DNA of 64,000 nucleotides from Shigella phage SP18. The DNA is taken from sequence record GQ981382. One strand, 5' to 3'. Under the pieces are notes generated by a model, which searched no databases, was not told the origin of the DNA, and was given only the letters and a program-made list of their open reading frames with translations. Of the stretch, positions 1 to 61,549 are shown piece by piece. Position numbers and translations under genes: made by a program. Within the stretch, counting starts at the first letter, position 1; each line of letters opens with the position of its first letter.

Positions 1-164
1 CAAAGGTAACCGCTTCAAGGAACGTAGATTTACCCGCGCCATTCTTACCGGTGACCAGAGTTTTTTGGACTTTATCCAGTTCAACAGTAATCGGTTGAGC
101 ACCAACCGACATAATATTTTTATAGATAACTTTCTTAAGCTTAAAAGTCTTCATCGTAATAAGC
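1..164 (-). CDS. 46: Recombination endonuclease subunit gp46 (SbcC/Rad50-like ATPase), N-terminal fragment; gene continues past window start
   Basis: Minus-strand ATG at 164; translation MKTFKLKKVIYKNIMSVGAQPITVELDKVQKTLVTGKNGAGKSTFLEAV with Walker A GKNGAGKST, matches recalled T4 gp46 N-terminus. Confidence 0.9.
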
Positions 165-404
165 ATCCTTGATACATGATTCAGCCATATGGATTAATGT
201 CTCTGGAGTATCATCTTCCATTACATTAAAGCTAAATTCCACGGCCCAATCGGTGACTACATAGACTTTGATAAGTTGACCAGTTTCCCGGTCAGTGATA
301 GCTTCAAACCAATACTTAATAGTATTCGGTTGATTATCGTCGTCAACCACATCACATTCGCGGATATGCTCAAGCCCCGCTTCATTAAAATCATAAAGTC
401 TCAT
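141..404 (-). CDS. Hypothetical protein between 47 and 46 (46.1-like position)
   Basis: 87-aa ORF, co-directional, abuts gp47 stop and overlaps gp46 start. Confidence 0.5.
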   Translation of the reverse strand: MRLYDFNEAGLEHIRECDVVDDDNQPNTIKYWFEAITDRETGQLIKVYVVTDWAVEFSFNVMEDDTPETLIHMAESCIKDAYYDEDF

Positions 405-1447
405 GGTTGCACCTCAAGATATAATTTGTTGGCCAATGCTTTGAGAGCTTTTGATTCTTTCTCATTGGCGTCAGGTAATGCATCGATATATTCTGCCATC
501 ATATCTGTTAAGCGTTTTATGTCTAACTCTTCATCAGAGTCTGACGTATCAACACTGTTATCAACCTTATTGACAACACGCAATTCGTGCACACGCTTTT
601 CTAATTCAGATTCGAACTTGGTCAGGTCTTTATCGACTTTTTCTACAATAACACGGACCGATAAGTCTTTGAAGTCGTCGTAGTTAATAGTTTCGTTTGG
701 ATAGAAAATCTTCCGATGCCAGGTGGTTTCATTCGGAATAAATTTCATCTCTTCGGTTTCGGTATCAAATTCCCAGAACCCGCGTGGGTCGTTCTCATCA
801 CCTGCTGTTAATGTCCATGGTGTTCCTATGTACTTAACGTTTGCAGCTTCTGAAATGGTATGGAAGTGACCAGACCAAACTTGCTTGTACTTCTTAAGGA
901 AATCAGGCTCAAGTCCGTGGGATTTCAATCCTTTATAGAAATAAAACCCGGTTAATTCCCAGTGACCGATGCAATATTCAGCACCAGAAGTTTTGATATG
1001 TTGGTGAATGTCAGTTGCGTTCTCGTCACACATCCATGGAATCATATCAATCTGACAACCGTCAAAATCAACAGTCGTTGGCTTATCGTAGATTTTAACA
1101 TGGTCATACTTATTCAGGAGTTCAGTGATAGCATTAGGATGAATCTTATTCTTCAGATTCATGTCATGGTTCCCGACTATCGTGTGCATAGTAATTCCTG
1201 CTTCACGAAGGAGTTCCATAATCTCACGGCTGAATTCCATCGTCTTATGCGTTACGGCCTTACGGACGTCAAAAATATCGCCATATTGAATCCAGACTTT
1301 AATCCCATTCGCTTTGGAATATGCAATCGCCTGTAAAATACCATCGCGTTGAATGTTTTGAGCCCATGGGTCGTCAGCTTTGACACCTAAGTGCCAATCA
1401 CCTAAATTTAAAATTTTCATAAGCCAAGCACCGTTATCGCAATGCAA
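401..1447 (-). CDS. 47: Recombination endonuclease subunit gp47 (SbcD/Mre11-like phosphoesterase)
   Basis: 348-aa ORF; N-terminus LGDWHLG and GDIFD, internal GNHD metallophosphoesterase motifs; synteny with 46. Confidence 0.92.
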   Translation of the reverse strand: MHCDNGAWLMKILNLGDWHLGVKADDPWAQNIQRDGILQAIAYSKANGIKVWIQYGDIFDVRKAVTHKTMEFSREIMELLREAGITMHTIVGNHDMNLKNKIHPNAITELLNKYDHVKIYDKPTTVDFDGCQIDMIPWMCDENATDIHQHIKTSGAEYCIGHWELTGFYFYKGLKSHGLEPDFLKKYKQVWSGHFHTISEAANVKYIGTPWTLTAGDENDPRGFWEFDTETEEMKFIPNETTWHRKIFYPNETINYDDFKDLSVRVIVEKVDKDLTKFESELEKRVHELRVVNKVDNSVDTSDSDEELDIKRLTDMMAEYIDALPDANEKESKALKALANKLYLEVQP

Positions 1448-1603
1448 AATAAAATTATTGAAATGAACCCGTCAGGAGTGGAAAAGAATCCTATCCAACA
1501 AGCTCGTGTGAATGTATAGAATGCCATGAATAGCACGACATATCCTAAAAATAATTCCATATGTTCTCCTCAGTTGGTTCATTTTATCATCCCGAATATA
1601 AAG

Positions 1604-1628
1604 CAAAAAAGGAAGCACTAGGCTTCCT
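1604..1628 (-). terminator. Rho-independent terminator (minus sense)
   Basis: Hairpin ggaagc-actag-gcttcc; plus-strand A-run 1604-1610 gives U-run after stem in minus sense. Confidence 0.5.
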
Positions 1629-1791
1629 TTCCAATTAATACACCGTACAGAGGTTCGTGAGAAGACCTGAACTTGATAGGCTTATAGGTAATAGTACCTT
1701 CATTTTCTGCTTTAATGCGAGCGGCTTCAAATTGAAGTATCATCTCATTTTTGTCAGATTTAATCTTATCAAAATCCGTCGAATTCGTCAT
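1618..1791 (-). CDS. Small hypothetical protein (about 57 aa)
   Basis: Hand-translated minus ORF MTNSTDFDKIKSDKNEM... ending inside the terminator hairpin; below ORF-track size cutoff. Confidence 0.3.
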   Translation of the reverse strand: MTNSTDFDKIKSDKNEMILQFEAARIKAENEGTITYKPIKFRSSHEPLYGVLIGKEA

Positions 1792-1947
1792 TCATACAGC
1801 CTCTTAAAAATCAGGATGTTCGTCTTGAAATATATTACCCAATCGTTTTAATTCATCAGAAGTAAGAATATCTACATCATCAATAGCCATAATATGCCTC
1901 TTAAACTTTTTCGTATTCGTCTTTCATTAGCCAACCTGTCCATGTTA

Positions 1948-2148
1948 TCATCTCTGCCACCACTTCTTAAGTTGATGAGAATCAACCCAAACCTTGGCTA
2001 CAGGCTCAATCTTAAAAATACCATCAGAATATTGGCCCATCATTTTGTATTCGGTTTCGGTCTGCTTAATACAGATATTACCGTATGAGCGAAGTCTGAA
2101 AGCGGCTCCAATAAGAAGCCGTTTAAAAGGTTTATTTACTAATGCCAT
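1948..2148 (-). CDS. Hypothetical protein (66 aa)
   Basis: ORF track; co-directional with flanking genes. Confidence 0.3.
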   Translation of the reverse strand: MALVNKPFKRLLIGAAFRLRSYGNICIKQTETEYKMMGQYSDGIFKIEPVAKVWVDSHQLKKWWQR

Positions 2149-2443
2149 TTACGATTTCCCAAATTTGTTTGCGAGTAGAATCCCACATCAACTTAATCAG
2201 GTCTTCCGTAACGGGTTGGCGGTAAATCCCACGCAGTTTAACTAAAGCGTATTTGTATGCTTCAAAATTGTTTTCCAGCACTGCGCCTTGAGCATGCTTA
2301 TTCAGTCGTGCAATTTCACGAGCATTCTTTTTCAGAATCTTCGCTGCTTGACTGGTTGCTTCAAGTGCGTTCGCTTCTTCGAGACGTTCCTGTGCTTCTT
2401 CAATCTGCTTATCGGTCAGTTGAGAAATATCTGGAGCTTGCAT
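2132..2443 (-). CDS. Hypothetical protein (103 aa)
   Basis: ORF in the 47-55 interval where T4 carries a-gt; no recognisable motif. Confidence 0.5.
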   Translation of the reverse strand: MQAPDISQLTDKQIEEAQERLEEANALEATSQAAKILKKNAREIARLNKHAQGAVLENNFEAYKYALVKLRGIYRQPVTEDLIKLMWDSTRKQIWEIVNGISK

Positions 2444-2444
2444 A

Positions 2445-2696
2445 TTAATCCTTGGGAGTTAACTCAATTGTAAAATATAGATTAGCATTATCCACATGAT
2501 AACGGTAATCAACGTTATTATCCGGTGAAGTAAATTCCAGATTCCGGACGTTTAAAGGGTCGATATCAATTGGAAGACCTTTTATGTCTCGCAGATAAAG
2601 TTTAATGAAATATGGGAGCGCAGTAAAGTCTTCCTCGATTTTATCTAAAAAATCGGTAATATCAAATTGATGTTTCATATAAAAAATCCAAATCAC
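2445..2696 (-). CDS. Hypothetical protein (83 aa)
   Basis: ORF immediately downstream of gene 55. Confidence 0.5.
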
Positions 2697-3219
2697 CTTC
2701 TTTATCTTTGGCGCTCTTATCAGACCCTGGCGCTTTAACTAAAGAGGATTCGTACTGTGTCATTTTGTCATAGATGTCCTGGATAAATGTTTCATCAGCC
2801 AGAGCCACCATATCGTCATCACGTGAATCGTATACGTTATGGACGAAGTAGCTATATTTCTTTGCCATTTCTTTACGTTCTTTTTTGATACGCTGAACGA
2901 AAGCATTGAAGCAAGCCATTGTTATGTAAGCATGTGGATTATCGTATTTTGTTTCGTCGAAGTTGTGAAGACCTTTTATTGCGGCCTCAATTCCGTCTGC
3001 TATCATTTCTTGCTTCCAGGATTGGGTATATCCGGAGAAGTTGAAACGTTTGCTAAGACCTTCGGCTATAAGCATAATCGCCAGACCAATAACATCGTTC
3101 TGGCGAATAATTTTGTTCGGGTCGGTGTTCGCATTCAGCTTCTGTTTCCACTCCGAAATAGCTTTCAAAAGCTCTTTATTATTTACATAGTTATTCTTGG
3201 TTAATTTAATTTCGTTCAT
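2662..3219 (-). CDS. 55: Late-transcription sigma factor gp55
   Basis: 185 aa; [45 protein letters not shown] and [20 protein letters not shown] match recalled T4 gp55. Confidence 0.93.
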
Positions 3220-12913: not shown

Positions 12914-13291
12914 TTATTTTAATGCTAAAATCGCCGCCTGCAATTTATTGCGTTGTGTTTCCATGTTCTTGATGCGATTCAGAACATCCTGGATACCCTT
13001 TTTCTCATCTTCAATCAGACCATTTAAGCGGTTGACTGATTCCTGGATAGCATCAGCATGATGTTTCTCAATAGGCTTCATTGATGGGTTAAAGATTCCA
13101 AGAGAGCTAGCCGGTTTGACTTTCCATTGGTACATATTTTTAACGTCCAGCGGTGAAATAGGCTGTGTTTTATATTGACCTGCAAATGCTGGACCATATG
13201 ATGCGGATGATGCGATAGGGGTACGTTCTGTCATTTCTGGTTCCTTTTTCTCCTGATAAGGAGCGTAAGACAAAAGATATTCTTTAGTCAA
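12914..13291 (-). CDS. Hypothetical protein (125 aa)
   Basis: ORF track. Confidence 0.45.
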   Translation of the reverse strand: MTKEYLLSYAPYQEKKEPEMTERTPIASSASYGPAFAGQYKTQPISPLDVKNMYQWKVKPASSLGIFNPSMKPIEKHHADAIQESVNRLNGLIEDEKKGIQDVLNRIKNMETQRNKLQAAILALK

Positions 13292-13305: not shown

Positions 13306-13818
13306 TTATAGTTTTAAGGAATTTTCCGTTTGGTGGATATAATTTGTATCTTCTTCAAACGTGTATGCTTCAACAGCATGGCGCATATAAAACAGCGCAA
13401 TACCCATAACCTCTTTAAAGGTATCACAAAGAGCAACATCACCCTTGGTGGTTGGCTTGAACTTAATCTGCACACCATCATTCTTGATATTGATAATCAA
13501 GTTACTGGAGGTAAAATTATAGTTCTTGATGTTAACTGGAGCTTTACGAATACGAAGTCCAGCTGCCAGGATTTCCTTGATACTCTTACGAACTGTGACA
13601 CCAAACAAAAACGCAGGGCGGCGGCAGTAATCATTCAGAGAGTTAATTCTTACAATACGTTGACCATACCCCTGGGTGGCAGAACCAGATTTGATTTTGC
13701 CAAAGTTAACCAGAGAATTCATCGCAATAAGACGGGTTGCACGTCCTTCACGCTGTTCAAATCGAGAATATTCTTTACGTGTTTTAATGTTCATATCAGA
13801 GTCCAAATAATTTTTCAT
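13306..13818 (-). CDS. Hypothetical protein (170 aa)
   Basis: ORF track. Confidence 0.5.
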   Translation of the reverse strand: MKNYLDSDMNIKTRKEYSRFEQREGRATRLIAMNSLVNFGKIKSGSATQGYGQRIVRINSLNDYCRRPAFLFGVTVRKSIKEILAAGLRIRKAPVNIKNYNFTSSNLIINIKNDGVQIKFKPTTKGDVALCDTFKEVMGIALFYMRHAVEAYTFEEDTNYIHQTENSLKL

Positions 13819-28401: not shown

Positions 28402-28982
28402 TTACGGCATTCCTCAATAAAAGAATTTAATGTATTTTTCTTAGCGATATCGTCGTATACCTTTTTAACTTTAGAAATACGAAAAGGTACTTCAATAGTC
28501 ATAGTCCATAAAAATGATGCAATAAGTCCAACAGCAGCAGAAGAAATGCACGCGCCCATTACAGCCACAGGCGCTTCATTTTTACCTGTCAGGAAAAACC
28601 ACAGGATTGGTAAAAATAAGATTCCAGACCAAGCATAAAACCTGGAACAAATTAACTTATCAAATTCATCTTTCCAGGTACGAAATCCATATTTCTTGCT
28701 ATAAGAAATTAATGGGTCGGGCGTCTGTTCTTTGAGTGGTTCTGGTTGATACCCATTAATGATGTATCCCATTTTATATTCCTTAATTAAAAGCTCTTTC
28801 ACATGACGATTGCATCGCGACCAATCAACATTTTCCACCTTGATTCCTTCATCACCATCATCAAGGTTCGCCCAATATTTTTTGGTAATCATAAATTCAT
28901 CTCTTGATACAATTATACCTGCATTTTCTGCCCGACGGATGAAGTTTACATCAACACCCATACAACCAGGTTCATACAGCAT
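28398..28982 (-). CDS. Membrane protein with C-terminal FIEEC motif (194 aa)
   Basis: Two hydrophobic helices; C-terminal NSFIEECRK shared with other ORFs in the window. Confidence 0.5.
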   Translation of the reverse strand: MLYEPGCMGVDVNFIRRAENAGIIVSRDEFMITKKYWANLDDGDEGIKVENVDWSRCNRHVKELLIKEYKMGYIINGYQPEPLKEQTPDPLISYSKKYGFRTWKDEFDKLICSRFYAWSGILFLPILWFFLTGKNEAPVAVMGACISSAAVGLIASFLWTMTIEVPFRISKVKKVYDDIAKKNTLNSFIEECRK

Positions 28983-29667
28983 TACCAGCCCTCCATAGGA
29001 AATTCCAGATATACTTGAGCATTAACGCGGATTTCATTGGTGATTTTATTAACGCGGTCAGTTTTACGAGATACACGACCAAACCAGCGCCAACCATTAC
29101 CAACTGTTTTTGTTCCAGTATGCCAGGTCTGCCAGTTGAATTCACACAACGTGCGGTCAGGAGCTTCTTGAACTAAAAGTTCACCCGCCTTGATTTTTTC
29201 CAGAACTTCCTGGTGCCACTGGCGATAGATAAGTTCGCCATCAGGAATCTGACTGAATTCTGAAGTTCCCAGAGCAAAATGAGTAGGGCAAACAGAAGCG
29301 TTAACCAGACCCAGGATGTGTTCAGAATGGTAACGAGGGTTATCATAATCAGGTTGTCCTGCTGTAATAAAATGTTGTCCTGCTGGAATATCTGGACGTG
29401 GTACATCATCATGGTGATACCCAGGGATAGCAGGATACCAACCAGGCATCAACATATGGACGCGAGAGTCAAATACAACATCACGATTGGTCCAGTCCAG
29501 TGGTAATGCAGCAATAAAGCTACGGGTAATTAAACCGCCTTTATCCCAGGCAAAACTTAAATCACAATTAAAGAACATCGGTTCATTTTTGATTTCGTCA
29601 TTACTGACATATTGAGCAAATTGACCAACTTCACGCATTTGACTATTAAAAGTTTTTGAGCTATTCA
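28982..29667 (-). CDS. Hypothetical protein (about 228 aa from internal Met)
   Basis: Track ORF 28982-29806 trimmed to the MNSSKTF Met so it does not overlap the upstream ORF. Confidence 0.5.
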
Positions 29668-29678
29668 TGATATTTTCC

Positions 29679-29969: not shown

Positions 29970-30929
29970 TTATTTTGTGAAAGGACGAATTAAATGTTGG
30001 TTAGCCTTAAAGCGTTTAACATAGTCTTCGCGCCCCAGGGTGTTGTACATATTAACCACTTCCTGGTAATGTTCCCAGGCATACTCACGGAACCATCCAG
30101 ACGTAATGGAGGTGCAGACTTTTTCCAGCGCAATATGGAAGCTCACAGATGGAGAGATATTGAACTCATTAGGAACCTGCGAACGCTCCAGAGCGAGCAC
30201 ACATGCTTCTTCATAAACCCCTGCCAGTTTAATAACATCAGGGAGCGCTTCAAATTTTTCACGCGAGGTCATGACTTCTGAATCATCCTTCATATAGAAC
30301 TTATATGCAGGCTTATCAGCAAGCGCCACGGCCTCGTGGATGGAGTCATGGTCAAGGGTATAGATTGTATCATTAAAGAAAGTTTTCTTGCCCACGTCTA
30401 GTTTAGGGTGACTGTATGACAGTGTTTCTGTCTGACGATGCAGCATGATTTTCTGCAGTTCATCATTAAGAACAATACCCTTATTGCGAAGGTAATTAAT
30501 ATGACTCATGGTCTTCAGGAAGAATGGATTGTTCTTCAGGTAACGATGAGACAATTTGATTGCCAAACAAATATCAGGGGTCGCCCAGTAAAAACCAGAT
30601 AGACGGTCTCTCTGAATATTTGCCTTCGCATATTTGAGCAGACGATAACTGGAGGTAAAATCTTCGTCTTGAAGCTCATCAGTCAACTCACGAACACTTG
30701 TCAGTGCGCGGACGATGTACGCTTCAAAATAGGTTTCTTTACCATTGTGCATACATTTAAAAGCTTGAACATCTGGGTTATCCACATGCACGTGCTGCCC
30801 CATCATCTGGGTTTTAAAACTGTTCCAAGAACCCTGGTCAGCGATAAAGTCCCAATCAGAGTTTTCAATTTTCTGACTTTCAATCAGACCAGCGTTATGT
30901 AATGCACGAGAACCAATAACTAACATCAT
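29970..30929 (-). CDS. Hypothetical protein (319 aa), possible nucleotidyltransferase-like N-terminus
   Basis: N-terminal VIGSRAL...SDWDF loosely resembles GS...DxD; otherwise unrecognised. Confidence 0.5.
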   Translation of the reverse strand: MMLVIGSRALHNAGLIESQKIENSDWDFIADQGSWNSFKTQMMGQHVHVDNPDVQAFKCMHNGKETYFEAYIVRALTSVRELTDELQDEDFTSSYRLLKYAKANIQRDRLSGFYWATPDICLAIKLSHRYLKNNPFFLKTMSHINYLRNKGIVLNDELQKIMLHRQTETLSYSHPKLDVGKKTFFNDTIYTLDHDSIHEAVALADKPAYKFYMKDDSEVMTSREKFEALPDVIKLAGVYEEACVLALERSQVPNEFNISPSVSFHIALEKVCTSITSGWFREYAWEHYQEVVNMYNTLGREDYVKRFKANQHLIRPFTK

Positions 30930-40182: not shown

Positions 40183-40183
<1 letters not shown>

Positions 40184-40860
40184 TATATTACCTTATTAAT
40201 TTTATCAAAAAGTTCATCGAGTGTGCCATCGTTTTTAATAACAATGTCACTAGCTAGTGGTGGAAGTCCAGCTTCCGTAATGTGTGTATCAGTAGAATGA
40301 TTTGCTTCATCGCGTTCTACAAAGATTATTGTAGCACCCATCGCCCGAAGCGAATCAAGTTCGTTCTTTTGGCGAACATCTGGGACAACGTAATATTTAT
40401 ATCCAGAATAGAGGTTGTCAAGATAGTTGCATGCAAAAGTTTTAATCCAAAACATGCTGTCGAACTCTGTACAAACGATGTCAGTTCCAAGGGTCTGCAT
40501 GAAACGTCTAACTGTCCAGGGCTCAACATTATTTAGTGTGTGAAATTCAATAATTTTACGAACCATATCTGGATTCGGAAGGTCAAGATTGTATTGTTGT
40601 TTCAACCATTCAAGAGCATCAACCAGAAGAATATAAGCTTCGGTGTTGTTCATTATCAAGGTTTTTTCACGGTCATAACCTTGTCCATCAAAATTTTCCA
40701 GGGTCAAATTGTGTGGCAGGTCTTGACGAATCCACGCGTTATAAAGCGCTTCTTTAATCGGACCTGCAAGCTGCCACTTTGTTCCATTTTGACTAATAAC
40801 ATAATCAGCAGTCGTATCTTTACCACTGCGTTTTTTACCCACAATCGCAATTAATTTCAT
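40183..40860 (-). CDS. 1: Deoxynucleoside monophosphate kinase gp1
   Basis: 225 aa; P-loop GKKRSGKDTTADY, QLAGPIKEAL, DTHITEAGLP match recalled T4 gp1. Confidence 0.9.
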
Positions 40861-43463: not shown

Positions 43464-45247
43464 TTAATATGTCAGATAATGTAAGTTGGTTCGTCGGGGT
43501 TGTCGAAGACCGAATGGACCCACTTCAGCAAGGTCGTGTGCGTGTTCGTGTATGGGGTATGCATCCATATGAGAAAGCACAAGGGCCTGTTAAAGGTATC
43601 AGAACCGAAGACCTTCCTTGGATGTCTGTATTGATGCCGACATCATCTGCATCAGTTTCTGGGATTCAAACTGCCATGACTGGTATGGTCCCAGGTACTC
43701 AAGTATATGGTCACTTTTTAGACAAGTGGAAGCTCAACGGTCTTGTTATTGGTACGTATGGTTCAGCCTCAAGACAAAAGGCAAATCCTAACGAAGGCTT
43801 CTCTGACCCTACAGGACAATACCCGCTTTATGTTGGTAATGATGCTGCAGCGCTTAACCGTGGCGGTGAAGTCGGTTATGATGCAACTTCGAACGTAATT
43901 CAGGATGCGAACCTTGACCTTGGTATTAACCCAGATGGTCTTGATTTGAGCCAGGTTAAGCCTGATGATAATCCTAATTTCACAATTGAAAATATGCTCC
44001 ACCGTGATGAAGGTCTTCGACTGAAGGTATATTGGGACACCGAAGGTTATCCTACTATAGGCATAGGACACTTAATTGCACCACAACCTATTAGAGATAT
44101 GAATCAGATAAACAAAATATTATCTAATCAAATAGGCCGTGAAGTTAAAGGTAACCCTGGTGCAATATCAATGGACGAGGCTTCTAAGTTATTCCAAGAA
44201 GACCTTAAAAAAGTCCAAAACGATATAGGTAGGCATAGTGTTGTGGGTCCGGTTTATAATAAAGAAAACCGTTCGAGACAAATGGCTCTTGAAAACATGG
44301 CTTTCCAAATGGGATTAGGTGGATTGGCTAAATTCCGTGGAATGCTTAGCGCAATGTTAGTAGGTGATTATAAAAAAGCATTTGAGGAAGCTCGTAATTC
44401 AGTATGGTTTAACCAAACTAAAGGACGTGCATCAAGGGTATCAATGATTATCCTTACCGGTAATATGGAATCATATGGTATTATGGCTCCTAAAGAAAGG
44501 TCATTTAAAGGGCGTTCATATAGGATGATTCAAACCTTTGCAGCCCCTGCAAATTCTGACCCAGCCGACCCATGGACTCCAGAAGATACACGGATTCTAT
44601 TTAAAGAGCCAGAATCAAGTTACAAGGGCGAATATCCTTACGTGCAGACAATGCAAACTGAAGGCGGTCATATTCAGGAATTCGATAACACCCCTGGACA
44701 AGAACGTTATCGACTGATTCACCCAACCGGTTCCTACGAGGAAGTTGCACCAGATGGTCGTAAGACTTCGAAGACAGTGGCCGATGGTTATTATATGACC
44801 CAGGGTGATTCGAGTACTTACGTTGGTGGTAATAATAAAGTCAACGTTGGCGGTGATGAAACCTATTATAATATGGCTAATGTTCGTCGTCAGACCGATG
44901 GAAACGAAAGCATTCATATTCGTGGGAATGAAACCAAAACTGTAGAAGGTAATGGAACTTTGCTTGTTAAAGGAAATGTTAAAATAGTTATTATGGGTAC
45001 TGCTGATATAACTGTTGAACAAGAAGCATATATTACGGTTGAAAAAGATACAACAGTTAATGTCAACCAGAATGCAGATATAAGTGTTAAACAAAAGGCC
45101 ACAATCAATGCTCAAAATATGGATGTAAATGTCGAACAAGATTTAAATTTTGCAGCGACGAACATTAATTTAAACGCATCAAATACTGTGCATATGGATG
45201 GTGGTTCATTAGCTAAAGTATCTGGTGGCAACGTACAGGTCGGTTAA
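43460..45247 (+). CDS. 5: Baseplate hub subunit and tail lysozyme gp5
   Basis: 595 aa; N-terminal VGVVEDRMDPLQQGRVRVRVWGMHPYEKAQGP, lysozyme domain DEGLRLKVYWDTEGYPTIGIGHLI, C-terminal repetitive beta-helix region. Confidence 0.93.
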   Translation: MINMSDNVSWFVGVVEDRMDPLQQGRVRVRVWGMHPYEKAQGPVKGIRTEDLPWMSVLMPTSSASVSGIQTAMTGMVPGTQVYGHFLDKWKLNGLVIGTYGSASRQKANPNEGFSDPTGQYPLYVGNDAAALNRGGEVGYDATSNVIQDANLDLGINPDGLDLSQVKPDDNPNFTIENMLHRDEGLRLKVYWDTEGYPTIGIGHLIAPQPIRDMNQINKILSNQIGREVKGNPGAISMDEASKLFQEDLKKVQNDIGRHSVVGPVYNKENRSRQMALENMAFQMGLGGLAKFRGMLSAMLVGDYKKAFEEARNSVWFNQTKGRASRVSMIILTGNMESYGIMAPKERSFKGRSYRMIQTFAAPANSDPADPWTPEDTRILFKEPESSYKGEYPYVQTMQTEGGHIQEFDNTPGQERYRLIHPTGSYEEVAPDGRKTSKTVADGYYMTQGDSSTYVGGNNKVNVGGDETYYNMANVRRQTDGNESIHIRGNETKTVEGNGTLLVKGNVKIVIMGTADITVEQEAYITVEKDTTVNVNQNADISVKQKATINAQNMDVNVEQDLNFAATNINLNASNTVHMDGGSLAKVSGGNVQVG

Positions 45248-45248
45248 T

Positions 45249-47312
45249 ATGAATTACTACGATAAAGTTGATGAAGTGGTAGGGACTGTAACAAGTCCCT
45301 GTGATGACGCAGTAGGACCCGGTGAATATCGCCGGGTTAAATGGGAATTATATAACCCAACAGGTGCTTTTATTCAACCTGGGAATGGCGTTGAATGGGA
45401 TACCGAGATTATTCCACTAGCTACACATTTATACACACAAAATCCATTTGGTAATAAGTCCGAAACTTTTCCTGCACCTCCGCCGCCGGAAGATGGAACA
45501 AGTCAAGGTATCTGGTGTGCTAAACTCGGAATATTCTTTATTACGCAATTGGATTTAGAAAATTATGTAGAATCGATTGGTGCAACTCTTTTGTCCGGTA
45601 ATGATTGGTACGGTGCTGATTTATCAAAATCCGTATTGTATAAAACATCTATTGAATATGATATGTATCGCATCGAAAACTGTGGCGGTGTATGGACGTC
45701 ACAAGGCCCTAGAATGGACCCCAGGACGATGATTGCAGTTACGGCTGATTATCATATGTATGTCAACTTTAACGGCCTTGGTGACTCCCGCAGGGCTTAT
45801 TTGAAGTACTATGAGACAAAACCTTGTACTTATGTTGGACTGGTATTAAATCTAGATGTTGATATGAGTATCCCAGGAACTCCGATTCCGGGACCGGTAT
45901 CCATTGGGTCTTTACCGCCAGAAATAACCGGGCGAGCCAGGGCAATAAGCTGTGTTCCTTTTACAGCGGAATTCCCTTACAACGGATTGACCAATGCGAT
46001 TATGGCTTCATGGAATACATCTAGGAATTCATTCAAATTATATTGGGATATGCTCCCTGGATGGCCATCATCTGGTGGAACCGATTGGGAAAAATTCTTC
46101 GATTCTGGTTATAGTAAGCTATCGGTCGCAATGGAAGAGCTAGGCAACTCAGCTGTTGCTATGTGTCAATATGTTCAGCAAATGGCTTTTCTTGCATTTA
46201 AAGATGCCATATCACAGGTCTTGAATATTGTTGGCGGTGGGTGGGACTTACTTAAAAGCTTTTTACCCTCGATTACTATTATGGGCATGACTATTGACCT
46301 GGAAGACCTCTGCACTTCAGGTGATGGTGTACAGAAATTAAAAGAAGCATGGAAAAACTTTAATTTAGAAGAAACCATCCAATCGATTTATTCTGCCATT
46401 GGGTCGGCATACGATTATTCGGTTGAACGCGTCAAGATGTATTCGCGTGACCTTATTGATGCAATTACAGACTTGTATGACTGGGCCTGGTCTCAATTGC
46501 TTATGGCTGGTGTTGCATTATCAAAACTGTGTGTAGACCTCGCTCAAATATGGAGTATGCCTCCTATAGTTCCGAACCCAGTTTGGAGCGTTATTACTGC
46601 GGTCAAGGAAATGATGAAGCAAGTTAAACCACTGGACATGATAATGAGCGGTAACTTTCCAGGATTCACAGCATCAGATGTTTATCAAATGGTTATGGAA
46701 AAGGTAGACCAGAAAATAGACGAAGCTTATGCAATGATTGAGGCTCTTAAAACCAAGGCACTCAATCTGTGGAATGAGATTAAGCTCAAAAAGCAAGAAG
46801 TACAAAAACAAGCTATTGAATTTAAACAATATCTTTCAGGAATGTACGAAAAAGTTACAGACGAGCTAACTGCTCAGAAGGAAGCCGCATTATCACAAGC
46901 TGAAGCTGCACTTGAACTTTTAAAGAATAAATATAATCAGATTAAGAACTCTATTACCGAAAGTCAAACCTCTGTTTCTGATGTATTAGATATGGCTTTA
47001 GAAGAATTCAAAAAACTTCCTATTGTGGCTCAAATGGAAGAACTTCTCGGTATGCTCGGAGCTACTGTAGATGATATCATGGTTATATACGAGAACTCAG
47101 TAACTAAAGCAAAATCTTTATATCACGAATTTACTGATGGTTCCAGGTCAATGAAAGACTTGTGCAAATCAATGTATAACCAAATATCAACATTATCCTT
47201 AAGTAAGGTGGTACAATGGATTAATAAGATGCTGGGAATATTCGGTTTAACGATTGCATTTCCATCCCTTTCCATTTGCATACCTTGTTTAGAATCTCCT
47301 ACTAGGAATTAA
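45249..47312 (+). CDS. Large hypothetical protein (687 aa) in the gene 5 to gene 6 interval; coiled-coil and C-terminal hydrophobic segment
   Basis: Single uninterrupted ORF from ATG 45249 (MNYYDKVDEV) to 1 nt before gene 6; no PAAR-like Gly-rich repeats recognised. Confidence 0.7.
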   Translation: MNYYDKVDEVVGTVTSPCDDAVGPGEYRRVKWELYNPTGAFIQPGNGVEWDTEIIPLATHLYTQNPFGNKSETFPAPPPPEDGTSQGIWCAKLGIFFITQLDLENYVESIGATLLSGNDWYGADLSKSVLYKTSIEYDMYRIENCGGVWTSQGPRMDPRTMIAVTADYHMYVNFNGLGDSRRAYLKYYETKPCTYVGLVLNLDVDMSIPGTPIPGPVSIGSLPPEITGRARAISCVPFTAEFPYNGLTNAIMASWNTSRNSFKLYWDMLPGWPSSGGTDWEKFFDSGYSKLSVAMEELGNSAVAMCQYVQQMAFLAFKDAISQVLNIVGGGWDLLKSFLPSITIMGMTIDLEDLCTSGDGVQKLKEAWKNFNLEETIQSIYSAIGSAYDYSVERVKMYSRDLIDAITDLYDWAWSQLLMAGVALSKLCVDLAQIWSMPPIVPNPVWSVITAVKEMMKQVKPLDMIMSGNFPGFTASDVYQMVMEKVDQKIDEAYAMIEALKTKALNLWNEIKLKKQEVQKQAIEFKQYLSGMYEKVTDELTAQKEAALSQAEAALELLKNKYNQIKNSITESQTSVSDVLDMALEEFKKLPIVAQMEELLGMLGATVDDIMVIYENSVTKAKSLYHEFTDGSRSMKDLCKSMYNQISTLSLSKVVQWINKMLGIFGLTIAFPSLSICIPCLESPTRN

Positions 47313-60913: not shown

Positions 60914-61549
60914 ATGACTACATACTATAGACTTTATGTATCAACATTTGAAACATCTAATGGGATAATGGTATATGGCGGTAAACGCCATTCACATTAT
61001 GAAGATTCTAAAGCGGATAGTTATTTCGGTTCTGGTACTATTGTCAAGCGAGCTAAACAAAAATACGGAAGGAAATGTTTAGTCGACATTACATGGTCTA
61101 AACCTTTTGAATCGCCTGCTCTATTAAAAGAAGCCGAAGCCTTACTAGTCAGTGAGCTTTTAGAAAGTTTCGATAATTGTGCAAATTTACATCCAACAGG
61201 GGGAGGTGGACCAGAAGGTTATAGTTGTCCAGAAGATTCCCCTGCCTTTGGTAAAAAGAGAACAGCAGAATCAAGAAAACGAATGTCAGACGCAGCAAAA
61301 CAAAGGGAATGGTCAGAAGAAGGATTAAAACGTCGTAAAGAATCAACAGCTCGAATGTGGATTGATTTTAAGGACAGACATCCAGATTTTTCTGATGATA
61401 AAAATCCGGCCGCGCGTAAAATTATTACCGGCGACCTAGAATTTTGTACCGGAAGAAAATGTGCAGAATATTATTCGATAACACCGGCGACGGTCATTTA
61501 CAGATGTAAAAGTACAGCCGAAAAATGGAAATTATGGAATTATGCGTAA
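60914..61549 (+). CDS. Putative GIY-YIG homing endonuclease (Seg-like), free-standing between genes 13 and 14
   Basis: 211 aa; N-terminal YYRLYV...GIMVYGGKR...YFGSG...E-rich helix...N fits GIY-YIG spacing; basic repeats [33 protein letters not shown] resemble NUMOD3-type DNA-binding modules. Confidence 0.6.

What the first reader, a model, noticed from the sequence alone, without database searches (positions are those of the whole stretch)
1448..2661. No glucosyltransferase-sized gene between 47 and 55
In T4 the alpha-glucosyltransferase gene lies between 47 and 55. Here that interval holds only ORFs of 57-103 aa, a terminator hairpin and AT-rich spacer. This suggests a different hydroxymethylcytosine modification pattern (glucosylation by another enzyme elsewhere, another sugar, or none), which affects sensitivity to modification-dependent restriction.
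Basis: partly seen in the sequence, partly recalled or inferred. Interest (0 to 1): 0.4.

Follow-up and report, generated by a model that had tools for sequence, protein, structure and literature searches.

The report
Missing glucosyltransferase; probable 5-methylcytosine phage
This T4-like phage has no alpha-glucosyltransferase gene between genes 47 and 55, which is normal for its genus (Gaprivervirus), and its relatives probably lack the gene because they appear to make 5-methylcytosine DNA with an altered thymidylate synthase instead of the hydroxymethylcytosine that the sugar would attach to.

Summary
Between gene 47 (401-1420, minus strand) and gene 55 (2662-3219, minus strand) there are only homologues of T4 47.1, a-gt.2, a-gt.3, a-gt.4 and a-gt.5, one unannotated 28-aa ORF, and one terminator hairpin followed by a MotA-type promoter. 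T4 carries mobB and a-gt at exactly that hairpin/promoter junction.

This layout is ordinary. It matches the annotated Gaprivervirus genomes VR7 and VR20. a-gt homologues occur mainly in Tequatrovirus-type coliphages and a group of Klebsiella phages.

I found no glycosyltransferase in the window or in the complete VR20 genome, which is 94% identical to the window. But VR20 also lacks gene 42 and b-gt, so there is probably no hydroxymethylcytosine to glycosylate. It still keeps dCTPase gp56, Alc and DenB.

VR20 has a single thymidylate-synthase homologue, "td", which lies outside the window. In Gaprivervirus td the residue equivalent to E. coli Asn177 is Asp, while Leu143 and Asp169 are retained. 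That is the published signature of a dCMP methylase. The 115 next-closest Td clusters listed all have Asn. Acinetobacter phages 133 and ZZ1 pose the same puzzle and also have Asp.

Published restriction data show VR7 DNA has modified, unglycosylated cytosines. The predicted base is therefore 5-methylcytosine. This is untested biochemically.

The parts
401..1420 (-). Gene 47 (SbcD-like recombination nuclease subunit), 339 aa. It forms the left boundary of the interval.
   Evidence: 72% identical to T4 gp47 over 338 aa, E 1e-169. The start codon and stop are given.
1417..1560 (-). Homologue of T4 47.1, a 47-aa predicted membrane protein. Its stop overlaps the gene 47 start as ATGA, as in T4.
   Evidence: 82% identical to T4 gp47.1. 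It matches phrog_6693 at E 3.5e-31. The gene is present in VR20, EAWsc9 and DK-13 and deleted in VR7.
1581..1607 (-). MotA-box (middle) promoter-like site, TTTGCTTTA-N12-TAAAAT, placed to restart transcription into 47.1-47. In T4 the mobB + a-gt module follows the homologous site.
   Evidence: Found by pattern scan. It is homologous to the T4 box downstream of a-gt.2: the blastn alignment of window 1714-1597 with T4 L002 5819-5705 runs through the hairpin and the box. Function is inferred, not shown.
1606..1632 (-). Intrinsic-terminator-like hairpin with an 11-bp stem and a U-run. The a-gt.2 stop codon TAG lies in the loop.
   Evidence: Found by the terminator scan. The RNA fold gives -16 kcal/mol with z = -2.3 against shuffles.
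1618..1791 (-). Homologue of T4 a-gt.2, 57 aa, function unknown.
   Evidence: 53% identical to T4 a-gt.2. It matches Pfam DUF5486 at E 6e-20 and phrog_2140.
1804..1890 (-). Unannotated 28-aa ORF (MAIDDVDILTSDELKRLGNIFQDEHPDF) with a strong Shine-Dalgarno sequence (AAGAGG). It lies on a 97-nt segment that is present or absent among relatives.
   Evidence: The segment is present in EAWsc9 and absent in DK-13 and VR20, and the region differs in VR7. It is flanked by the direct repeats AAGACGAA and TTTAAGAGGC. The ORF has no Pfam or PHROG family. Whether it is a gene is not established.
1948..2148 (-). Homologue of T4 a-gt.3, 66 aa, function unknown.
   Evidence: 43% identical to T4 a-gt.3. It matches phrog_1648 at E 4e-29.
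2132..2443 (-). Homologue of T4 a-gt.4, 103 aa, function unknown.
   Evidence: 42% identical to T4 a-gt.4. It matches Pfam DUF2654 at E 2e-23 and phrog_951.
2445..2678 (-). Homologue of T4 a-gt.5, 77 aa from its ATG, function unknown. It overlaps the 3' end of gene 55 by 17 nt.
   Evidence: 39% identical to T4 a-gt.5. It matches Pfam DUF5491 at E 1.5e-12 and phrog_1169.
2662..3219 (-). Gene 55 (late sigma factor), 185 aa. It forms the right boundary of the interval.
   Evidence: 79% identical to T4 gp55, E 6e-97.
40183..40860 (-). Gene 1 (dNMP kinase) homologue. It is the only step of the proposed 5-methyl-dCMP to 5-methyl-dCTP route that lies inside the window.
   Evidence: The ORF is listed. 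It is collinear with the VR20 gene annotated 'deoxynucleoside monophosphate kinase, similar to T4 gp1'. bioRxiv 10.1101/2024.12.05.627091 co-expressed T4 gp1, which it calls a promiscuous dNMP kinase, with 5mdCMP-producing synthases to bring 5mdC into plasmid DNA. A role in this phage is inferred.

Best explanation
The window comes from a Gaprivervirus-type T4 relative. Its 47-55 interval is the standard one for that genus: a run of small early/middle genes (47.1, a-gt.2 to a-gt.5), ended by one hairpin terminator and restarted by one MotA-type promoter. T4 has the 2.1-kb mobB + a-gt module inserted at that same terminator/promoter junction.

The glucosyltransferase is absent because the lineage has no substrate for it. 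The close relatives lack the whole hydroxymethylcytosine pathway (gene 42, a-gt and b-gt). They keep the machinery that excludes and attacks ordinary cytosine DNA (dCTPase gp56, Alc, DenB, DenA).

The proposed replacement is their single thymidylate-synthase homologue, annotated 'td'. It carries Asp at the position of E. coli Asn177 and keeps Leu143, Asp169 and the other 13 TS active-site residues compared. That is the published signature of a dCMP methylase. The proposed route is:
1. gp56 converts dCTP to dCMP.
2. Td(Asp177) converts dCMP to 5-methyl-dCMP.
3. The gp1 kinase and host NDP kinase convert that to 5-methyl-dCTP.
4. The phage polymerase incorporates it, so 5-methylcytosine replaces cytosine in the DNA.
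5. dTMP would come from deamination of 5-methyl-dC nucleotides by Cd, or from host ThyA.

A methyl group offers no hydroxyl, so no glycosyltransferase is needed.

Shown here: the anatomy of the interval, the absence of these genes, and the residue pattern. Inferred: the enzyme's activity, the identity of the base, and that this window's own genome carries the same td allele, because td lies outside the window.
For: Interval anatomy:
- The interval's genes and their T4 homologies are given.
- The T4 gene order is given.
- The hairpin and MotA box in the window are homologous to those after T4 a-gt.2. T4 has a second hairpin plus a degenerate box after a-gt.
- VR7, VR20, EAWsc9 and DK-13 have the same layout.
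- The window is collinear with VR20 at 94% identity over 91% of its length.

Absence of the hmC pathway in VR20:
- There is no hit to T4 a-gt, b-gt, gp42, Dam or mobB anywhere in VR20 (tblastn, phmmer).
- Exactly one TS-family ORF is found in VR20.
- gp56 is 68% identical to T4's.
- alc, denB, denA, cd, frd and gene 1 are annotated in VR20.

The Td residue pattern:
- VR20, VR7 and CJ20 Td all have Asp at the Asn177 position, with Leu143, Cys146 and Asp169 kept.
- The T4 Td crystal-structure sequence 1TIS has Asn at that position.
- Among the best 120 homologue clusters in a 5.8-billion-protein database, only the 4 Gaprivervirus-clade clusters have Asp. Of the rest, 115 have Asn and one did not match the motif.
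- dN/dS between the two Gaprivervirus td subclades is 0.18, so the gene is maintained by selection.

A prediction that was tested and held: Acinetobacter phages 133 and ZZ1 are the other Alc/DenB/dCTPase-bearing phages that PMC8056088 names as lacking any known base-modifying enzyme. Both also have Asp177 with Leu143 and Asp169.

Literature:
- The Asn177-to-Asp rule is described in PMC8670742.
- The Leu143 and Asp169 diagnostics are described in PMC13326640.
- TS homologues predicted from residue 177 were confirmed to make 5mdCMP in 5 of 7 cases, in cells co-expressing T4 gp1. The same paper proposes that deaminases supply thymidylate in 5mC phages (bioRxiv 10.1101/2024.12.05.627091).
- VR7 DNA is described as having modified, unglycosylated cytosines, and is listed apart from the hydroxymethylated T4 147 in an assay that included T4 beta-glucosyltransferase treatment (PMC6326788).
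- Gaprivervirus is reported to lack the hmC synthase while keeping Alc, DenB and the dCTPase, with the authors proposing an unknown base (PMC8056088 and PMC12115623).
Against: - td, gene 42's usual locus and b-gt's usual locus all lie outside the 64-kb window. For this particular phage their state is extrapolated from relatives that are 86-98% identical.
- No enzymatic or mass-spectrometric data exist for any Gaprivervirus.
- The VR7 restriction figure itself could not be seen. Only its legend was available. That legend says 'modified cytosines' and never says 'methyl'.
- Laboratory Asn177-to-Asp mutants keep some dUMP activity, so the natural enzyme could be dual or still mainly a dTMP synthase.
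- Whether Alc and DenB spare 5mC DNA is unknown.
- A 5mC genome should be a McrBC target. Only a weak Arn-like match (E 6e-5) was found at the syntenic position in VR20.
Confidence: 0.6

Rival explanations
1. The phage carries some other, still unknown non-canonical cytosine made by an unrecognised enzyme, as the comparative-genomics papers proposed. On this view the Asp177 in Td is incidental or only widens the enzyme's specificity.
For: PMC8056088 and PMC12115623 state that the enzyme and the base are unknown. Many genus-specific hypothetical genes remain uncharacterised. The TS family has already produced unexpected chemistry, namely the flavin-dependent 5-hydroxy-dCMP synthases (PMC13326640).
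Against: Asp177 co-occurs with the missing gene 42 in Gaprivervirus, phage 133 and ZZ1, and in none of the 115 next-closest Td clusters listed. The two obvious candidates were excluded. The gene at the 42 locus of VR20 encodes a lipoprotein. The dioxygenase-like 228-aa protein in the window is widespread in phages, including Mosigvirus-type coliphages. Td keeps Asp169, so it does not have the 5-hydroxy-dCMP synthase signature.
Confidence: 0.15
2. The DNA contains non-glycosylated 5-hydroxymethylcytosine. It would be made by Td(Asp177) acting as a hydroxymethylase, or by an undetected enzyme. Only the sugar step has been lost.
For: VR7 behaves like the non-glucosylated hmC mutant T4 147 towards BREX, and Csp6I cuts its DNA. 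Asp177 is shared with T4 gp42.
Against: Td keeps the bulky Leu143 that is thought to exclude water. T4-type hydroxymethylases have Asp or Glu there, and T4 gp42 aligns with Asp. Td is 66-70% identical over its full length to T4-type Td, including the C-terminus. The BREX supplement used T4 beta-glucosyltransferase treatment and calls T4 147 'hydroxymethylated' but VR7 only 'modified'.
Confidence: 0.1
3. The phage has ordinary, unmodified cytosine DNA, as reported for the Krischvirus and Pseudotevenvirus T4 relatives, so no transferase is needed.
For: No gene 42, a-gt, b-gt or Dam was found. Such T4 relatives exist (Table 4).
Against: Those genera lack Alc and DenB, whereas Gaprivervirus keeps Alc, DenB, DenA and a dCTPase 68% identical to T4's. 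VR7 DNA is reported to have modified cytosines. Asp177 in the only TS would be hard to explain.
Confidence: 0.08
4. The cytosines are glycosylated by a different transferase encoded elsewhere in the genome.
For: RB69-type phages do exactly this with arabinose. About 106 kb of this phage's genome was not seen.
Against: None of the 288 annotated features of VR20 is a glycosyltransferase or a sugar-nucleotide enzyme, including the rIIA-to-polymerase region where the arabinosylation cluster sits in other genera. VR7 DNA is reported to be unglycosylated. BREX, which glycosylation defeats, fully restricts VR7.
Confidence: 0.04

Closest known systems
47-55 interval of Gaprivervirus phages vB_EcoM_VR7, VR20, EAWsc9 and DK-13
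   Same: The gene content and order are the same: 47, (47.1), a-gt.2, a-gt.3, a-gt.4, a-gt.5, 55. There is no a-gt and no mobB. Nucleotide identity is 94-98%.
   Different: The differences are small indels. The window has 47.1, like VR20 and unlike VR7. It has the 97-nt segment with the 28-aa ORF, like EAWsc9 and unlike VR20 and DK-13. It lacks 46.1, like VR7. No database record matches the window exactly. The best match over 27-48 kb is CJ20, at 96% identity over 95%.
47-55 interval of phage T4 (Tequatrovirus)
   Same: The flanking genes 47, 47.1 and 55 are shared, as are the four small a-gt.2 to a-gt.5 genes. The hairpin plus MotA-box cassette after a-gt.2 is homologous.
   Different: T4 has the 264-aa HNH homing endonuclease MobB and the 400-aa alpha-glucosyltransferase, followed by a second hairpin, between that cassette and 47.1. 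The window has nothing there.
5-methylcytosine phages of the Xanthomonas Xp12 type (TS-family 5-methyl-dCMP synthase plus deaminase)
   Same: This is what the system is predicted to work like. A thymidylate-synthase homologue with Asp at position 177 would methylate dCMP. A kinase would bring the product to the triphosphate. A dCMP-deaminase-family enzyme could supply thymidylate. No second TS is present.
   Different: The genome background is T4-type, with dCTPase, Alc and DenB. The enzyme is a recent derivative of T4-type Td (66-70% identical) and not a relative of the Xp12 enzyme. Activity and base composition are untested. The Xp12 sequence itself was not compared here.
RB69 / Mosigvirus and Dhakavirus 5-hydroxycytosine-arabinose system
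   Same: These are T4 relatives that also lack a-gt and b-gt and that use a TS-family enzyme with Asp177 to act on dCMP.
   Different: Their enzyme sits at the gene 42 locus, has Asp169 changed to Asn and Leu143 changed to Glu, and is accompanied by arabinosyltransferases and sugar-nucleotide genes. VR20 has none of these genes, and its Td keeps Asp169 and Leu143.

Membership tests
T4 alpha-glucosyltransferase (a-gt) at the 47-55 locus | An ORF of about 400 aa, homologous to T4 a-gt, between 47.1 and a-gt.2. | tested here: not met
   The largest ORF in the interval is 103 aa. tblastn and phmmer with T4 a-gt give no hit in the window at E<2.
T4-type small early genes 47.1 and a-gt.2 to a-gt.5 | Sequence homology to the T4 proteins, in the same order and on the same strand. 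| tested here: met
   Identity to the T4 proteins is 82, 53, 43, 42 and 39% respectively, with E values from 1e-12 to 3e-21. The ORFs match Pfam DUF5486, DUF2654 and DUF5491 and PHROGs 6693, 2140, 1648, 951 and 1169.
Genus Gaprivervirus | High nucleotide identity and collinearity with the genus exemplars VR7 and VR20. | tested here: met
   The window is 94% identical to VR20 over 91% of its length in one collinear block, VR20 32325-95764. The 47-55 region is 94-98% identical to 33 Gaprivervirus-type records.
T4-type hydroxymethylcytosine pathway | A gene 42 dCMP hydroxymethylase, that is, a TS homologue with Asp177 and an acidic residue at position 143. | tested here: not met
   This was tested on the complete genome of the relative VR20. 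There is no gp42 hit. At the uvsX-imm locus there is only a 167-aa lipoprotein gene. The genus-level absence is reported in PMC8056088 and PMC12115623. The locus lies outside the window, so this phage itself could not be tested.
T4-type hydroxymethylcytosine pathway | A beta-glucosyltransferase or another DNA glycosyltransferase. | tested here: not met
   There is no b-gt hit in the window or in VR20. No glycosyltransferase is annotated in VR20.
TS-family 5-methyl-dCMP synthase (dCMP methylase) | A thymidylate-synthase fold with the catalytic Cys146 and the phosphate- and folate-binding residues intact. | tested here: met
   Tested on the relatives' Td (VR20, VR7, CJ20). R21, E58, W80, Y94, R126, R127, C146, H147, Q165, R166, S167, H207 and Y209 are all conserved. 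The match to PDB 1TIS has E 6e-128. The gene is not in the window.
TS-family 5-methyl-dCMP synthase (dCMP methylase) | Asp instead of Asn at E. coli position 177, which sets dCMP specificity. | tested here: met
   The motif is PFDIGSY in VR20, VR7, CJ20 and clusters P0001-P0004, against PFNIASY in T4 Td and 115 other clusters.
TS-family 5-methyl-dCMP synthase (dCMP methylase) | A hydrophobic residue at position 143 (methyl rather than hydroxymethyl product) and Asp at position 169 (not a 5-hydroxy-dCMP synthase). | tested here: met
   Leu143 and Asp169 are retained. The criteria come from PMC13326640.
TS-family 5-methyl-dCMP synthase (dCMP methylase) | Demonstrated conversion of dCMP to 5-methyl-dCMP, and 5-methylcytosine in virion DNA. 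| not testable with these tools
   Only indirect evidence exists: VR7 DNA is described as having 'modified cytosines' and as unglycosylated.

The most novel reading that the evidence does not exclude
Gaprivervirus phages, including the one this window comes from, and independently the Acinetobacter T4 relatives 133 and ZZ1, have replaced hydroxymethylcytosine by 5-methylcytosine. They would have done this by converting their own thymidylate synthase into a dCMP methylase through an Asn177-to-Asp change and discarding gene 42 and the glucosyltransferases. This would be the first T4-family phages with 5mC genomes. It would answer the question left open in PMC8056088 and PMC12115623 of which base and which enzyme these phages use.
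Probability: 0.55. Interest if true: 0.65.

Novelty: new member of a known kind. Interest (0 to 1): 0.45.

Why it matters
Taken alone, the missing a-gt gene is routine. It has been visible in the VR7 annotation (GenBank HM563683), and an a-gt homologue is found in only 657 phage records, mainly Tequatrovirus-type coliphages and a group of Klebsiella phages.

What matters is the explanation it leads to. [quoted passage not shown] The Asp177 thymidylate synthase is a concrete candidate that can be tested in an afternoon.

If the DNA is fully 5-methylcytosine, several consequences follow:
- It predicts which host defences these phages evade or trigger. They should be sensitive to McrBC, McrA, Mrr and BREX, and resistant to many type II enzymes.
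- It bears on whether they are low-transducing, which the 2025 paper treats as a criterion for choosing safe therapy phages.
- It bears on how their DNA behaves in sequencing and cloning.
- It adds a third cytosine chemistry to Tevenvirinae, alongside glucosyl-hmC and arabinosyl-5hoC.
- It shows how a single residue change in a housekeeping enzyme can replace a whole modification module.

Tried and rejected
1. I looked for a hidden or divergent a-gt, b-gt, gp42, Dam or MobB in the window and in the whole VR20 genome with tblastn and phmmer. Nothing scored below E = 0.15.

2. I considered the gene that occupies the b-gt/42 locus in VR20 (167 aa) as the replacement enzyme. It was rejected because it has a lipoprotein signal peptide (…LLSGC) and no enzyme domain.

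3. I considered the 228-aa protein at window 28982-29668. It has an HxD…H-like motif, and the EAWsc9 record annotates a 'phytanoyl-CoA dioxygenase' somewhere in this region. It was rejected as a genus-specific replacement because it is found in 470 phage records, including Mosigvirus-type coliphages, Aeromonas and Klebsiella phages and even mycobacteriophages.

4. The neighbouring 319-aa protein (DUF7277 + DUF7275) has no known function, and I did not pursue it further.

5. I scanned other large early ORFs of the window against Pfam and found no glycosyltransferase or methyltransferase domain.

6. I searched the literature for an earlier statement that Gaprivervirus or VR7 DNA is 5mC and found none. 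The two original VR7 papers in Arch Virol (2010, 2011) are not held, so they could not be checked.

7. The 'AT-rich spacer' is not a feature. It is ordinary short intergenic DNA.
Full report
**What is in the interval**

All genes in this part of the window are on the minus strand. Gene 47 runs from 401 to 1420. Gene 55 is 2662-3219.

Between them are these ORFs:

| Feature | Coordinates | Length |
|---|---|---|
| 47.1 homologue (ATGA overlap with gene 47, as in T4) | 1417-1560 | 47 aa |
| a-gt.2 homologue | 1618-1791 | 57 aa |
| unannotated ORF with a strong AAGAGG ribosome-binding site | 1804-1890 | 28 aa |
| a-gt.3 homologue | 1948-2148 | 66 aa |
| a-gt.4 homologue | 2132-2443 | 103 aa |
| a-gt.5 homologue | 2445-2678 | 77 aa |

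- Identities to the T4 proteins for 47.1 and a-gt.2 to a-gt.5 are 82, 53, 43, 42 and 39%.
- The family matches are DUF5486, DUF2654 and DUF5491 and five PHROGs, all of unknown function.
- No ORF on either strand exceeds 103 aa.

The only sizeable non-coding stretch between a-gt.2 and 47.1 is 57 nt. It holds a hairpin at 1632-1606 with an 11-bp stem and a U-run (-16 kcal/mol, z = -2.3). The a-gt.2 stop codon lies in its loop. Directly after it comes a MotA-box middle-promoter-like site, TTTGCTTTA-N12-TAAAAT, at 1607-1581, followed by the 47.1 ribosome-binding site. GC content is not unusual.

**Comparison with T4**

The order in NC_000866 is 47, 47.1, a-gt (400 aa), mobB (an HNH homing endonuclease), a-gt.2, a-gt.3, a-gt.4, a-gt.5, 55.

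- Nucleotide alignment shows that the window's hairpin and MotA box are homologous to the hairpin and box that follow a-gt.2 in T4.
- In T4 that box is followed by mobB and a-gt.
- After a-gt, T4 has a second hairpin (GGGCTTCGGCCC) with a degenerate copy of the box (TAGCTTTATA), and then 47.1.
- T4 therefore differs from the window by a 2.1-kb module bounded by similar terminator/promoter cassettes.
- I infer that such repeats are the likely substrate for gain or loss of the module. This is not demonstrated.

**How ordinary the layout is**

The window is a Gaprivervirus.

- Its first 3.4 kb are 94-98% identical to 33 records of that genus.
- The whole window is collinear with VR20 at 94% identity over 91% of its length.
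- VR7, VR20, EAWsc9 and DK-13 are annotated with the same a-gt-less interval. They differ only by small indels: 47.1 is missing in VR7, and the 97-nt segment with the 28-aa ORF is missing in VR20 and DK-13.
- Homologues of T4 a-gt occur in 657 of 50,697 phage records. About 500 are at 90% identity or more. In the 30 sampled rows these are E. coli, Shigella, Yersinia and Salmonella T4-type phages. About 143 records are at 60-80% identity, and in the sample these are Klebsiella phages.

An empty a-gt slot is thus the rule outside those groups. It has been public in the VR7 record (HM563683).

**Is there another glycosyltransferase?**

- None is detectable in the window.
- I fetched the complete RefSeq genome of VR20. 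None of its 288 features is a glycosyltransferase or a sugar-nucleotide enzyme.
- T4 a-gt, b-gt, gp42 (dCMP hydroxymethylase), Dam and MobB give no hit in VR20 by tblastn or phmmer.
- Where T4 has segA, b-gt and 42 between uvsX and imm, VR20 has a single 167-aa gene whose product starts with a lipoprotein signal peptide.
- VR20 nevertheless keeps a dCTPase 68% identical to T4 gp56. It also keeps alc, denB, denA, cd, frd and gene 1.

The literature states this paradox explicitly. PMC8056088 and PMC12115623 report that Gaprivervirus lacks the hmC synthase and every known base-modifying enzyme while keeping Alc, DenB, DenA and the dCTPase. They conclude that an unknown enzyme or an unknown base must exist.

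Experimentally, PMC6326788 reports that VR7 DNA has modified cytosines, is not glycosylated and is fully restricted by BREX. Its supplementary legend describes an assay that included T4 beta-glucosyltransferase treatment. It calls T4 147 'hydroxymethylated' but VR7 only 'modified'.

**The lead that came out of this**

VR20 has exactly one thymidylate-synthase-family gene, annotated td (HMM search).

- Its product aligns end to end with E. coli ThyA and with the T4 Td crystal-structure sequence 1TIS.
- It reads …DVFLGLPF**D**IGSY… where T4 Td and E. coli ThyA read …PF**N**IASY….
- This is E. coli position 177. The Asn-to-Asp change there is the classic switch from dUMP to dCMP specificity that turns TS into a dCMP methylase (PMC8670742, citing Hardy & Nalivaika 1992 and Liu & Santi 1992).

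PMC13326640 adds two further diagnostics. A bulky Leu143 goes with a methyl product, and an acidic residue there goes with a hydroxymethyl product. Asp169 changed to Asn marks the 5-hydroxy-dCMP synthases of RB69-type phages.

- Td of VR20, VR7 and CJ20 keeps Leu143, Asp169, Cys146 and the other 12 active-site residues compared. CJ20 is the closest record to the window over 27-48 kb.
- T4 gp42 aligns with Asp at both position 143 and position 177.

The change is specific to this lineage.

- Among the best 120 homologue clusters from 5.8 billion proteins, only the four Gaprivervirus-clade clusters (86-98% identical) have Asp.
- The other 115 clusters that matched the motif (70% identity or less) have Asn. 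They include Tequatrovirus-named phages, phage Bp7 and Klebsiella T4-type phages.
- The two Gaprivervirus td subclades differ at 14% of residues but give dN/dS = 0.18, so the gene is under purifying selection.

**A test of the idea**

PMC8056088 names two other T4 relatives with the same paradox, Acinetobacter phages 133 and ZZ1. I fetched their td genes. Both encode Asp at position 177 and keep Leu143 and Asp169, although they are only about 53% identical to the Gaprivervirus enzyme. The correlation between a missing gene 42, retained Alc/DenB/dCTPase and Asp177 in Td therefore holds in every case examined.

**Most likely mechanism**

The steps below are inferred unless marked otherwise.

1. 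gp56 hydrolyses dCTP to dCMP.
2. Td(Asp177) methylates dCMP with CH2-THF. Frd, whose gene overlaps td by 4 nt in VR7, recycles the dihydrofolate.
3. The gene 1 kinase (window 40183-40860) and host NDP kinase make 5-methyl-dCTP. bioRxiv 10.1101/2024.12.05.627091 co-expressed T4 gp1 with 5mdCMP-producing synthases in an in-vivo assay of this kind.
4. The phage polymerase incorporates it, so 5-methylcytosine replaces cytosine.
5. Thymidylate would come from deamination of 5-methyl-dC nucleotides by Cd, as that preprint proposes for Xp12-type phages, or from host ThyA.

A methyl group cannot be glycosylated, so a-gt and b-gt are superfluous. A weak Arn-like match (an inhibitor of McrBC, E 6e-5) lies next to asiA in VR20. 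That would fit a 5mC genome but is not strong evidence.

**Limits**

- td and the gene 42/b-gt locus are outside the window, so for this phage their state is extrapolated from relatives.
- No biochemical or mass-spectrometric data exist.
- I could read only the legend of the VR7 restriction figure.
- The two original VR7 papers are not in the library, so I cannot exclude that they comment on td.
- I did not compare the Xp12 enzyme itself.

**Verdict**

Following it leads to a specific, testable and apparently unpublished explanation for a puzzle stated in the literature. I rate the whole as moderately interesting. The predicted enzyme is a new member of a known kind, the TS-family dCMP methylases.

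Noticed in passing
window 1804-1890 (segment 1826-1923): There is a 28-aa ORF with a strong Shine-Dalgarno sequence between a-gt.2 and a-gt.3. It sits on a 97-nt segment that is present in EAWsc9 and absent in VR20 and DK-13. The segment is flanked by the direct repeats AAGACGAA and TTTAAGAGGC, which looks like an indel created by recombination between duplicated ribosome-binding-site sequences.
   Followed up: partly
window 1-404: Gene 46.1 is absent. The gene 46 start (about 155) overlaps the 46.2 stop (141), as in VR7. VR20, EAWsc9 and DK-13 all carry 46.1. The window therefore mixes VR7-like and VR20-like micro-indels.
   Followed up: partly
window 60914-61549 (+): A 211-aa homing-endonuclease-like ORF sits between genes 13 and 14. 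It hits T4 SegA at E 8e-6 and phrog_314 'homing endonuclease' at E 2e-29. VR20 has 13 and 14 directly adjacent.
   Followed up: partly
window 44982-47302 (ORF 45225-47312, +): A 695-aa ORF (phrog_5296, unknown function) follows gene 5 in a 2.3-kb segment that has no counterpart in VR20, which has 5.1 and 5.4 there.
   Followed up: no
window 12914-13291 and 13306-13818 (-): The NrdC.5-like gene (phrog_2351, 329 positions; one 306-aa gene in VR20) is split into two ORFs of 125 and 170 aa. This could be a frameshifted or interrupted gene, or a sequencing error.
   Followed up: no
window 28982-29668 and 29970-30929 (-): Two adjacent genes have unknown function. The first encodes a 228-aa protein with an HxD…H-like motif. 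It is found in 470 phage records across Proteobacteria, Actinobacteria and Bacillus phages, and the EAWsc9 record annotates a 'phytanoyl-CoA dioxygenase' in this region. The second encodes a 319-aa DUF7277 + DUF7275 protein.
   Followed up: partly
L003 22916-23419 (VR20, outside the window): The slot that holds segA, b-gt and 42 in T4 holds a single 167-aa predicted lipoprotein gene in VR20 (signal peptide ending LLSGC; phrog_1754). This may be a superinfection-exclusion-type function next to imm.
   Followed up: partly
L006 35905-36655 (VR20, outside the window): VR20 has a full-length alc (167 aa) followed by a second, 77-aa ORF. The N-terminus of the second ORF resembles the Alc N-terminus, so it may be a partial duplication.
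   Followed up: no
L013 117-1064 (phage 133) and L014 7347-8279 (phage ZZ1): The td genes of Acinetobacter phages 133 and ZZ1 also encode Asp at the Asn177 position and keep Leu143 and Asp169. The same predicted dCMP-methylase switch therefore exists outside Gaprivervirus.
   Followed up: yes
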